From assembly GCA_964658305.1 (NCBI GenBank), contig OZ210884.1, positions 4,774,001 to 4,838,000 of the forward strand: a DNA stretch of 64,000 nt, given 5' to 3'. The notes beneath the pieces were generated by a model, which saw only the letters and a list, made by a program, of their open reading frames with translations, was not told the DNA's origin and did no database searches. The position numbers and the translations under genes were made by a program. This document shows, piece after piece, positions 28,501 through 64,000 of the stretch. The DNA is from Leptogorgia sarmentosa (Eukaryota). Position 1 is the first letter of the stretch. Each line of letters opens with the position of its first letter.

Positions 28501-31500
28501 TTGTGGAAACGGTTTCGTTGCCTGCACACAATCATTATCTCTTGTCATTCCTGGATTTATCGTCACCCTTGAAAGAAATCGTGTAAGAGTGAATGGATCA
28601 ACTATCACCTTGCCTGCAAATTATACTGGTGAGAGCAAGAAGTAAAAGAATTATATGTCTGTAGAATAGGCTGTATTTTTAGTTCTGGTAATAGAAGGTA
28701 AAAAATGATCATTCAGTGTTTAACAAGGAAAGGAAACTCATTTCTACAACAGTTTATGTAACCAAAACTGAAATTCTATGATTAATAACTTTTGCTGAAA
28801 TCAACAGTTTTCTTCAGGGTGGATAAATCGTTAAACTAAATTTTTATTCAATTCGGGGTTTGAAAAAGAAATCATGCAAGAACGAGTTTCGAGCTTAAAC
28901 CGGTTATTAATTGTCTAGATTAAATTATGTGACCCCTACTCCTAACTTAAGACAGTATTCGTAGAACAAAATAAAACTGTTTAGAATCTCAAAAGCTTAT
29001 TCGAAAAGAACGGACCGATTTTTCCACTCTTGCTTAATGTAAGTTAGAAAAAATGTTCGAATAAGGTTCCAAATTTCCTCCTGACAACTAAGGCGTTGTT
29101 TTGATTCGTTAAAGGTGCAATGCATATTCATTCAGTGGGACGAGAGACACGTGTCGATACGAGTTTTGGAGTGTATATTTCTTGGAACAATGTATATAAT
29201 GTAGAGATTGATGTCCTTGGTCGTTATCTCGATAGCATAAGTGGTCTTTGTGGTACATTCAATGAGGACAGTTCCGACGATTTTTTAACGTCTGGCAATG
29301 TGACAACGACTAACGTGACAGAATTTGGTAATTCGTGGAAGACTGATCCTACATGTGGGGACGCTCCAACGTTTGAAAACCCTTGCGACACAGACCCAGC
29401 TCGTGCCGCAATTGCGAAAAGTAATTGTTCTGCCTTACTCCAAGCCCCATTTTGGATATGTAACGGTACAGTGAATGCAACAGAAGAGAATTTCATCGCC
29501 GATTGCGAATATGATATGTGTGCTTGTGACAGTAATCCCGTTGCGTGCCTTTGCCAAATATTTGAGGCATATGCTTCTGCATGTTTTGCCGAGAACGTCA
29601 ATATTGATTGGATTGGTGACTTCCCACAATGCAGTGAGTATATTTTATTGTCCGTAAAGGCCCGTTTACACGGGCGATTTTTGCTGCGATTTCAGGTGCG
29701 ATTTTCTCCTTTTGAACGATGTGAAAGAGTTGATCAGTTAGAAATGTTCCAAATTATCATATCTAATATCAACTTTGATAATTTATCCACTCCTTCACAT
29801 CGTTCAAAAGCCGAAAATCGCCCCTAAAATCGCAGCAAATATCCCCTGTGTGAACGAGCCTTATAAGGAACATTAACGTTCTTTTTTAAAGTTCGTCTTT
29901 GAGGTCCAAATATATAGCTTCAATTTTAAGAGGCGTATTAGAGTTGATCGATTGCAAATTAATATTTAATCCATTACGGAATTCAATATTGCTGCATGGT
30001 AGACGTATCCAGATTGAATTTCGAAAAATTGGGAAAGTGAAAAATTCAGAATTTTTATTGTTTTAGCCAGATAGCCGCTTCAAATTTGAGTGTCTGGGCA
30101 GCCAAGGAAATGGCCGCCACTCACTTTCAACGTTAAGACCAGTTAACCATATACGTAAATCGATAAACCAGACCGTCATTAATGAAGAAAACAAAGTAAA
30201 AAAAGGGCAATAAAAAGTAAAACAAAAAGCTTTGTTGAAAAATGAAAATTGTAGCTACTTACTTATTCGAAAAATCTCTAAAATAAACAAACGCACGCAA
30301 TTGGGCTGTGGTTGACAATCCCTCTTTAAATGATATTTCTTTCTCTAGCCACTCCATGTGCCAGTTCTCCCTGTTTCAATGGTGCAACGTGTATCAACGA
30401 AGGCGATTCGAGCTACACCTGCCAATGTCCTGATGGATATATTGGTGATCGATGTGATATTAGAGGTCAGTTTTAGCGAATGCAATTCTGGGTGAAATCT
30501 CTCGTTCGCATTGTCTCTTACTCCACATGTAGTTGTCGTGAATTGATGACAGCGTGGCTCTATATGTTAAAATTTACTAAAAACTTGCTCAGTTTGCGCA
30601 GCACGCTGTCAGCCATGCATCAAGGAGATACCCCTTATGAAAAATACACATGTGTTTCACATGTGGAATTGCAACAATCACATGTGATTCACACATGATT
30701 CACATGTGAACCACATGTGAACGAAAAATACACATGTAAAACCCACATGTGAAACACATGTGAATCACATGCGAATCATATGTGAATCACATGTGATTGT
30801 TCCAATTCCACATGTGTTTCACATGTGGGTTTTGCATGTGTAATTTTCGTAAGGGACAGATTATAATGAGCTGAAATTAAAAACGGCTATTGCTTCGTTA
30901 AATAAAGCATTCCATCTTTCACCTCATGAAAATATTCTTACCATTGCACTCACAAAAATTCATTATTTGTATAACAGCTAATTATATTCGGGGCTGCGTT
31001 GGATACCAACTTACATGAATGGGTTACCTTCCTAGAAGAAATAATAATCATCATTATCGTCATCAGTTTCATACTGTACTCCTGCTGTTTCTGTTTTAGA
31101 TGTGTGTAATATCCCGGTACTTGTCTACTATGGGGAAAGTGAAATAAACTACCAGGTCACGATCAATAACATAACAACATCAGGAAGTCTTGTTAGTGGA
31201 GGAGCATTGGACGTCGATTACGATTCTTTCTCCCGACGTTTGTTTTATTACCAGTCGGACCACTTCTATAGCGTTAAGCTAGACGGTTCAGATGTGAGAG
31301 ACCTAGGGGAAGTAAAGCTTGTTGTGAGGTTTTCAGTCGACGGCAGAAACAACATCATCTACTATATTTTTGATTCAACTGACACCGTTTATATGTTCAA
31401 TATGACAAACTTACAAACTGATGAAGTTGCAGATCTGCAGGATGTGACGGGTGCCAAGGATATCGACGTTGACAGCGTAAACAAGTAAGCTCAATAATTA

Positions 31501-64000: not shown

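What the first reader, a model, noticed from the sequence alone, without database searches (positions are those of the whole stretch)
31100..63138. Homogenised VWD scaffold versus highly divergent propeller heads within the same repeat
Seen: paralogous VWD-C8 exons are near-identical at DNA level, including synonymous sites, over hundreds of bases (37516-38040 vs 45763-46287; 36975-37244 vs 44362-44631 vs 52483-52752). The propeller exons of the same units differ at a large share of residues, and most introns do not align. Simple tandem duplication would give uniform divergence. Inference: concerted evolution keeps a constant scaffold while propellers escape it or diversify, the pattern expected for a multivalent recognition system (microbes, gametes or allorecognition).
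Basis: partly seen in the sequence, partly recalled or inferred. Interest (0 to 1): 0.78.

Follow-up and report, generated by a model that had tools for sequence, protein, structure and literature searches.

The report
Coral gene homogenises only VWD exons
In a giant repeat protein gene whose closest relatives are from soft corals, the von Willebrand D exons of different repeats are nearly identical, most likely because they copy sequence from one another, while the neighbouring propeller exons are old, conserved copies that show no sign of diversifying as immune or gamete recognition heads.

Summary
One intact, spliced gene encodes signal peptide, LRP-type propellers, EGFs and nine VWD-C8 modules; four 12-exon units repeat. 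Its closest named relatives are octocoral. Between units, synonymous divergence is pS 0.13-0.19 in VWD-C8 exons but 0.66-0.70 (near saturation) in propellers and equally in the EGFs behind them. Patchwork tracts, species-specific VWD clades, and a unit-1 VWD that matches its paralogues instead of its positional orthologue in Dendronephthya point to exon-centred gene conversion. Contigs from another study break where the VWD copies become shared, so it is not assembly collapse. Propellers have dN/dS 0.12, no positive-selection signal (low power), diverge between species about as fast as an unconverted VWD, showed 0 differences in propeller 3 in three other samples, and are themselves 87-96% identical within some octocoral chains. 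VWD exons carry denser conserved blocks, which likely keep them convertible. This is a clean case of a known process in an apparently undescribed receptor-like family; a homologue ends in a membrane helix and tyrosine-motif tail.

The parts
19523..19577 (+). Predicted first coding exon: ATG, 18-residue hydrophobic signal peptide, phase-1 GT donor
   Evidence: read from sequence; inferred, no spliced contig laid here
20056..30465 (+). N-terminal part, 16 exons: propeller (20056-20434, 20716-21098), 3 EGF, propeller (23119-23482, 24102-24478), 6 EGF, unconverted VWD-C8 'V0' (28359-28628, 29115-29633), EGF (30349-30465)
   Evidence: V0 groups with its positional orthologue in D. gigantea, 68%, 100/100
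31100..38271 (+). Unit 1: class-A propeller (31100-31484, 31984-32354), 3 EGF, VWD-C8 b1 (34970-35239, 35548-36078), 2 EGF, VWD-C8 d1 (36975-37244, 37516-38040), EGF
   Evidence: propeller and EGF triplet follow position across species, b1 does not
38529..46681 (+). Unit 2: class-B propeller (38529-38913, 39641-40005), 3 EGF, VWD-C8 b2 (42460-42729, 42821-43351), 2 EGF, VWD-C8 d2 (44362-44631, 45763-46287), EGF
   Evidence: one X8 contig joins the two propeller exons
47208..54716 (+). Unit 3: class-B propeller (47208-47595, 47991-48361), 3 EGF, VWD-C8 b3 (49991-50254, 50956-51486), 2 EGF, VWD-C8 d3 (52483-52752, 53643-54164), EGF
   Evidence: one X10 contig skips four predicted introns at GT..AG
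54827..63138 (+). Unit 4: class-B propeller (54827-55211, 55646-56010), 3 EGF, VWD-C8 b4 (58550-58813, 59098-59628), 2 EGF, VWD-C8 d4 (61087-61356, 62243-62758), EGF
63854..64000 (+). Start of a fifth class-B propeller exon; the gene runs off the window
35548..36078 (+). Patchwork exon class Vb (also 42821-43351, 50956-51486, 59098-59628): units pair 1=3 and 2=4 at both ends, but 1=4 and 2=3 in the middle
   Evidence: 46 informative sites in 5 runs, P about 5e-5; neighbour-incompatibility P about 1e-4
36617..37291 (+). Longest tract that crosses introns: EGF plus first d exon of unit 1, 88% to 43985-44648 of unit 2; 47 nt of the next intron shared with unit 3

Best explanation
The VWD-C8 exons of this giant, spliced, octocoral-like repeat gene are 85-98% identical between units, likely because non-allelic gene conversion keeps copying tracts between copies of the same class, while the propeller and most EGF exons are old paralogues under purifying selection that likely dropped out of conversion long ago. 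Shown: low dS confined to VWD-centred tracts, patchwork tracts, species-specific VWD clades, saturated dS and omega 0.12 in propellers. Inferred mechanism: after the units duplicated (around or before the split of the three octocoral lineages compared), introns diverged and cut the homology into exon-sized islands. Exons with long, densely constrained blocks stayed similar enough to recombine, and each conversion reset their synonymous sites, a positive feedback. Short EGF exons and the more loosely constrained propeller exons fell below that threshold. Inferred function: a large type I membrane or shed surface glycoprotein whose LRP-type propellers would bind fixed ligands and whose GDPH-bearing VWD-C8 modules would form a self-cleaving, disulfide-held scaffold.
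For: (1) dS contrast. (2) Patchwork in Vb: codons 106-135 have 0 differences for pairs 1-3 and 2-4 but 16 for the other pairs; codons 46-90 have 0 for pair 2-3 (P about 1e-4). (3) Trees: window d1-4 one clade (100/98), D. gigantea d copies another (100/99), window b1-4 one clade (100/99); same class across species 68-75%, within the window 84-97%; AU tests reject position-wise pairing for b1, d1, b3, d3 (p 3e-4 to 1e-84). (4) In unit 1 the propeller (100/100) and EGF triplet (76%, 100/100) group with their D. gigantea positional orthologues, yet b1 is 87-92% to b2-4 and 56% to the D. gigantea VWD at that position. (5) Identity falls off within about 10-50 nt of the exon edges in most pairs. 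(6) Best 60-residue cross-species window: b/d VWD exons 0.73-0.90 (first exons 0.80-0.90), propeller exons 0.48-0.78. (7) Propeller omega 0.12, M1a v M2a 2dL 0, M7 v M8 p 0.59. (8) A published model predicts exon-limited homogenisation of synonymous sites when conversion depends on identity (10.1101/2025.10.29.685298, abstract and one section read). (9) Fold: P. clavata propeller model pLDDT 93, TM about 0.8 to nidogen, LRP2, LRP6; GDPH in 9 of 9 VWD.
Against: Length alone does not explain the contrast: the 270-nt VWD exons are homogenised, the 365-388-nt propeller exons are not. The constraint gap is modest over whole domains: unconverted V0 68% and propeller 1 60% to D. gigantea. V0 escaped although it is a VWD (pS 0.61-0.77). 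The patchwork test is not significant for class d (P 0.10). No GC-biased signature: GC at fourfold sites is 0.28-0.33 in VWD and 0.36 in propellers. The D. gigantea b1-position VWD is a long branch (0.75), so part of point 4 may be its own fast change. Shared polymorphism between paralogues, the direct population sign of conversion, could not be read from contigs. The membrane helix and tail lie outside the window and come from a separate D. gigantea gene model on the same contig.
Confidence: 0.75

Rival explanations
1. Conversion does reach the propellers, but selection removes it because each propeller binds a different fixed ligand (multi-ligand receptor, opsin-type divergence peak); VWD sameness may also be selected for matched self-assembly.
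For: Propeller exons are longer than the homogenised 270-nt exons. Class A v class B propellers are kept across three lineages. Unnamed database exons match single window propellers at up to 80-90%. Theory allows it (PMC3924837, passages). A homologue has a tail with paired YxxL motifs.
Against: The opsin pattern needs homogenised flanks around a peak; here flanking introns and EGFs are as diverged as the propellers. Propellers are 96% identical within P. clavata P0001 and 87% within D. gigantea P0168. Class-B propellers show no supported position-wise orthology.
Confidence: 0.2
2. The propellers are hypervariable recognition heads under positive or balancing selection (allorecognition, gamete or pathogen arms race), as in abalone VERL repeats 1-2.
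For: Same overall shape as VERL: some repeats homogenised, others independent (PMC2704960, passages). M8 places 5% of sites at high omega, but without significance. dS saturation and three sequences give low power.
Against: Omega 0.12; likelihood tests not significant. Tree distance to D. gigantea about 0.66 for propeller 1 and 0.63 for V0. Propeller 3: 0 differences in X10 (both exons), X7 and X4 (parts); propeller 2: 4 of 386 and 0 of 365 in X8.
Confidence: 0.06
3. VWD identity is an assembly or polishing artefact.
For: Contig depth suggests about 7-10 further near-identical VWD-b units outside the window, so this locus is hard to assemble.
Against: Copies differ by 2-15% in ordered patches with an intact frame. 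Contigs of X6, from another study, end at 35196 and 42492, exactly where window 31-mers become shared. D. gigantea models show the same pattern at protein level.
Confidence: 0.03
4. The VWD blocks were swapped in by unequal crossing-over or replacement from a young propeller-free VWD array rather than by short conversion tracts.
For: High-depth EGF and VWD-b contigs with a shared intron, and an Es-to-Ex junction not in the window's exon order. One tract crosses two introns (units 1-2).
Against: Most VWD-flanking introns do not align. Patches switch partner inside one exon. Class d is homogenised without such a deep array.
Confidence: 0.1

Closest known systems
Abalone VERL (egg receptor for lysin)
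   Same: Repeats 3-22 homogenised to over 95% while repeats 1-2 evolve independently (PMC2704960, passages).
   Different: In VERL the escaped repeats are positively selected and whole repeats of one domain type differ in fate. Here the split runs inside every unit by exon type, introns intervene, and the escaped domains are under purifying selection.
Vertebrate FCGBP and gel-forming mucins
   Same: [quoted passage not shown]
   Different: EGF instead of TIL after C8, no FCGBP_N domain, no PTS region in the window, interleaved propellers, probable membrane anchor.
LDLR/LRP family (LRP2, LRP4, LRP6) and nidogen G3 propellers
   Same: Six-bladed-type propeller followed by EGF; best PDB sequence hit LRP2 E 5e-33; fold TM about 0.8.
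   Different: YWTD reduced to one YWxN-type match in 5 of 6 propellers; no LDL-A repeats in the window; VWD-C8 modules between propellers.
Interlocus gene conversion with exon-limited homogenisation (A. halleri HMA4; Drosophila dumpy repeats)
   Same: Synonymous sites homogenised, introns diverged (10.1101/2025.10.29.685298); concerted evolution of repeats inside one giant matrix gene (PMC2930355, passages; PMC5100051, passages).
   Different: Here only some exon classes of an intragenic repeat take part, in two parallel classes (b, d), repeated in at least two octocoral lineages.
Octocoral gene models XP_028406460/461/465, XP_028416063, XP_028410566 (D. gigantea); CAB4021858-60, CAB4009690-91 (P. 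clavata)
   Same: Same domain order; XP_028416063 matches the window from the EGF before V0 through unit 2.
   Different: Only automatic names (IgGFc-binding-like, SCO-spondin-like, fibrillin-like); unit make-up varies (b missing in one unit, propeller-only repeats in P. clavata).

Membership tests
Concerted evolution by non-allelic gene conversion | Paralogues within a species closer than same-class copies in other species | tested here: met
   84-97% v 68-75%; species clades 100/98-100/99; AU tests reject position-wise pairs
Concerted evolution by non-allelic gene conversion | Low synonymous divergence against an older background | tested here: met
   pS 0.13-0.22 v 0.65-0.70
Concerted evolution by non-allelic gene conversion | Patchwork tracts with conflicting trees | tested here: met
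   class b P about 1e-4; class d not significant (P 0.10); propellers P 0.43
Concerted evolution by non-allelic gene conversion | Polymorphisms shared between paralogues in a population | not testable with these tools
   only collapsed contigs were served
Concerted evolution by non-allelic gene conversion | GC enrichment at silent sites (common side effect, recalled; not required) | tested here: not met
   GC4 0.28-0.33 in VWD v 0.36 in propellers
VERL-type gamete receptor | Escaped repeats under positive selection | tested here: not met
   omega 0.12; M1a/M2a and M7/M8 not significant; three sequences, saturated dS, low power
VERL-type gamete receptor | Gamete-specific expression and a binding partner | not testable with these tools
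   run tissue not on record
Invertebrate allorecognition genes (Hydractinia Alr type; features recalled) | Extreme allelic polymorphism of the ectodomain | tested here: not met
   0 differences in propeller 3 in X4, X7, X10; at most about 1% in propeller 2 pieces; two of six propellers examined, contigs drop rare variants
Invertebrate allorecognition genes (Hydractinia Alr type; features recalled) | Membrane anchor with tyrosine-motif tail | tested here: inconclusive
   present in D. gigantea P0002 and unnamed P0035; the window's gene end lies outside
FCGBP / gel-forming mucins | VWD-C8-TIL units | tested here: not met
   C8 is followed by EGF; no TIL hit in the window exons scanned or in P0002, P0004
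FCGBP / gel-forming mucins | FCGBP_N domain or PTS region | tested here: not met
   signal peptide is followed by a propeller; no PTS stretch in the 5265 residues read; C-terminal part not seen
FCGBP / gel-forming mucins | GDPH self-cleavage motif | tested here: met
   motif in 9 of 9 VWD; cleavage itself untested
LDLR/LRP family | YWTD-type propeller plus EGF | tested here: met
   fold and profile match (model is of the P. clavata homologue, 69% to propeller 1); motif degenerate
LDLR/LRP family | LDL-A ligand-binding repeats | tested here: not met
   all 65 exons are propeller, EGF or VWD-C8; none in homologues scanned
LDLR/LRP family | Membrane helix and NPxY | tested here: inconclusive
   helix in P0002 and P0035; NPAY in P0035, NVAY in P0002

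The most novel reading that the evidence does not exclude
An octocoral-specific giant surface receptor that fuses LRP-type propellers with self-cleaving mucin-type VWD-C8 modules and an ITAM-like tail. Selection would keep its VWD modules identical for matched self-assembly while shielding each propeller from conversion so that it keeps its own ligand, giving a natural, lineage-replicated experiment on what lets an exon enter or leave concerted evolution.
Probability: 0.2. Interest if true: 0.7.

Novelty: new variant of a known kind. Interest (0 to 1): 0.42.

Why it matters
It is an unusually clean within-gene test of conversion theory. Exons of the same age and neighbourhood differ in fate by domain type, two VWD classes homogenise in parallel, one VWD has escaped, and a positional orthologue shows one overwrite directly. 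It warns that 'constant scaffold, variable heads' can arise without any selection for diversity. The protein family itself (propeller-EGF-VWD/C8 with a probable signalling tail) carries only automatic names and may be a major surface or mucus component of soft corals; one literature search combining octocoral names with these domains found no paper on it.

Tried and rejected
No whole genome is held for this window, so the gene end and the outside array could not be read. Run search: no RNA holder listed on record; spliced joints in X8 and X10 were taken only as evidence of exon joins, not of level or tissue. Pfam does not name the propeller exons (no family at its cut-off for the 8 propeller exons given); a profile against PDB did. 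Word-based homologue searches were weak: 1 hit for a propeller exon, 4 octocoral hits each for the VWD exons. None of the best 150 representative-library hits to the propeller profile holds GDPH, so no non-octocoral propeller-plus-VWD protein was found, nor excluded. Site-model tests gave nothing but have little power. GC-biased conversion was not seen. Exon length as sole cause was rejected. Monophyly of window propellers 2-4 is neither shown nor rejected (p-AU 0.17-0.23). X5's version of Vd1 carries letters of Vd3 and other copies, but bubble-popped contigs cannot separate segregating conversion from a chimera, so it was not used. The upstream coiled-coil gene got no Pfam name. Two look-ups in earlier findings returned nothing. 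Octocoral skeletal proteome papers (PMC7853314, PMC11959691; passages only, supplements not opened) list vWD, EGF and YWTD domains but no protein with this architecture in the passages seen; their supplements could bear on a skeletal role. A search for 'divergence peak' papers gave nothing relevant. No complex prediction was run: no specific binding claim is made.

Full report
Gene anatomy. Self-comparison and splice-site reading give one + strand gene with 65 coding exons from 20056 to the window end, open for 5265 residues without a stop (one donor is GC, which adds a codon). A predicted signal-peptide exon lies at 19523-19577. Order: propeller, 3 EGF, propeller, 6 EGF, VWD-C8 (V0), EGF, then four units of propeller, 3 EGF, VWD-C8 (class b), 2 EGF, VWD-C8 (class d), EGF, then a fifth propeller cut by the window. 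Units are 7.4-9.0 kb. Pfam confirms VWD, C8 and EGF. The propeller has no Pfam name but matches LRP2/4/6 by profile; a model of the P. clavata homologue (pLDDT 93) matches nidogen, LRP2 and LRP6 at TM about 0.8. All 9 VWD carry GDPH. Contigs of two runs from one study (kind not on record) skip predicted introns at GT..AG, four in one contig. The closest named relatives are from the octocorals Paramuricea clavata and Dendronephthya gigantea.

All 24 same-class VWD exon pairs have dS 0.05-0.32, all 12 propeller pairs pS 0.51-0.84. Pooled for units 2-4: propellers 0.659, the EGF triplet behind them 0.648, VWD-b 0.127, VWD-d 0.221, the EGFs around the VWDs 0.516. Five of 66 intron pairs align; the intron between units was not tested. 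So the background age of the repeat is near saturation, and the VWD exons are the exception.

Not an artefact. Contigs of X6, from a different study than the best holders, end at 35196 and 42492, the exact bases where window 31-mers turn from unique to shared. The copies differ in ordered patches with an intact frame. D. gigantea models repeat the pattern at protein level: d copies 81-89% identical, most propeller pairs 58-70%.

Evidence for conversion. In exon Vb the 46 informative sites fall into 5 runs (P about 5e-5): units 1=3 and 2=4 at both ends, 1=4 and 2=3 in between. Class d gives no significant patchwork (P 0.10). Classes b and d are old: each is 68-75% identical across species, yet the window's copies form their own clades (b 100/99, d 100/98), as do the D. 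gigantea d copies (100/99); AU tests reject four position-wise pairings. XP_028416063 follows the window's order from before V0 into unit 2. There V0, propeller 1 and the first EGF triplet group with their window counterparts, but the next VWD is 56% to b1, while b1 is 87-92% to b2-4. So b1 was overwritten inside an otherwise position-faithful unit, with the caveat that the D. gigantea copy is a long branch. Identity drops within about 10-50 nt of the exon edges, except one tract across two introns in units 1-2.

The propellers are not diversifying. Maximum-likelihood omega is 0.12 for propellers, 0.09 for EGFs and 0.27-0.35 among VWD copies. M1a v M2a gives 2dL 0 and M7 v M8 p 0.59, on 248 codons of three sequences with saturated dS, so power is low. 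Tree distance to D. gigantea is about 0.66 for propeller 1 and 0.63 for unconverted V0. Propeller 1 differs most because it is an old class kept in all three lineages (60-69%). Propeller 3 showed 0 differences in X10 (both exons), X7 and X4 (parts); propeller 2 showed 4 of 386 and 0 of 365 in X8. Only two of six propellers were examined and contigs drop rare variants. Propellers can be near-identical: 96% within P. clavata P0001, 87% within D. gigantea P0168.

Why only VWD. Length does not explain it, since 270-nt VWD exons are homogenised and 365-388-nt propeller exons are not. Density of constraint fits better: the best 60-residue window against other species is 0.73-0.90 for b/d VWD exons and 0.48-0.78 for propeller exons. 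The most conserved 5' part of the first VWD exon is even partly shared between classes b and d (pS 0.21 in codons 1-20). Identity-dependent conversion with purifying selection is modelled to homogenise silent sites in exons while introns diverge (10.1101/2025.10.29.685298, abstract and section 12), and concerted evolution ends once divergence blocks pairing (PMC3924837, passages). This step is inferred. Selection that shields each propeller is not excluded, but its usual sign, a peak between homogenised flanks, is absent. Donor number may add: contigs with an Ex3-like exon, its intron and new Vb letters lie at about 7-10 times single-copy depth in several runs, and one spliced contig joins an Es-type to an Ex3-like exon. 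That hints at a young propeller-free array outside the window; contig depth is not a true copy number.

Function. D. gigantea XP_028406460, 461 and 465 share the same longest-contig length and neighbouring accessions, likely pieces of one gene. The last ends in a hydrophobic helix and a tail with YxxL-x11-YxxL pairs, shared with an unnamed propeller-EGF protein that also has NPAY; calling these ITAM-like and endocytic is recalled knowledge (listing only). The likeliest product is a very large, acidic, heavily N-glycosylated (119 sequons) surface receptor or shed coat protein, cleaved at GDPH as FCGBP is (PMC8267560, abstract). Ligands, tissue and role are untested.

Comparison and verdict. It works like VERL in having homogenised and escaped repeats but lacks VERL's positive selection. 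It is not an FCGBP, mucin or LRP by defining domains. Concerted evolution of domain repeats is known though uncommon (PMC5100051, passages); zonadhesin shows what a selected VWD recognition gene looks like (PMC9275260, passages). One search for this family in print found nothing relevant. Verdict: real, explained mostly by a known process, with an unusual exon-class specificity and an undescribed protein family. Interest 0.42.

Noticed in passing
outside the window; seen on 49650-49900, 42460-43351, 35548-36583: Contigs with an Ex3-like EGF exon plus intron and VWD-b exons with letters found in none of b1-4 lie at about 7-10 times single-copy depth (X2 1547 v 211; X4 50 v about 5.5; X7 38 v 4.5; X10 182 v 22), and an Es-to-Ex junction appears: likely a young propeller-free EGF-VWD-C8-EGF array.
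   Followed up: partly
P0002 residues 959-1127; P0035 residues 404-549: Membrane helix and conserved tail with YxxL-x11-YxxL pairs and NxxY, suggesting an octocoral family of propeller-EGF receptors with signalling tails.
   Followed up: partly
loose ends at 49683 and 49789 (run X10): An EGF exon and a VWD exon start not present in the window flank an Ex-type exon: further units or paralogous genes exist.
   Followed up: no
35548-36078 and paralogues: The patches that differ among Vb copies are rich in amino-acid changes (omega 0.34; pair 1-3 about 0.8) and are shuffled into four different combinations, so the combinatorial variety lies in the VWD-b exon, not in the propellers.
   Followed up: partly
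about 6069-12714 (+): Upstream multi-exon gene with a low-complexity N-terminus and coiled-coil exons; resembles CCDC91 from memory, no Pfam support.
   Followed up: no
22045: GC donor after the second EGF exon; the four Vb exons and several EGF exons use AAG acceptors.
   Followed up: no
39210 region, 40165-40356, 44700-45530, 49230-49455: Short intron elements at very high contig depth (up to several hundredfold), likely small transposon-type repeats.
   Followed up: no
24621-24713: An 85% copy of part of the second propeller exon (24327-24420) lies in the following intron.
   Followed up: no
P0001 / P0014 (P. clavata): A VWD-free version alternates class-B and class-A propellers with near-identical copies (96%), either a young duplication or propeller homogenisation.
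   Followed up: partly
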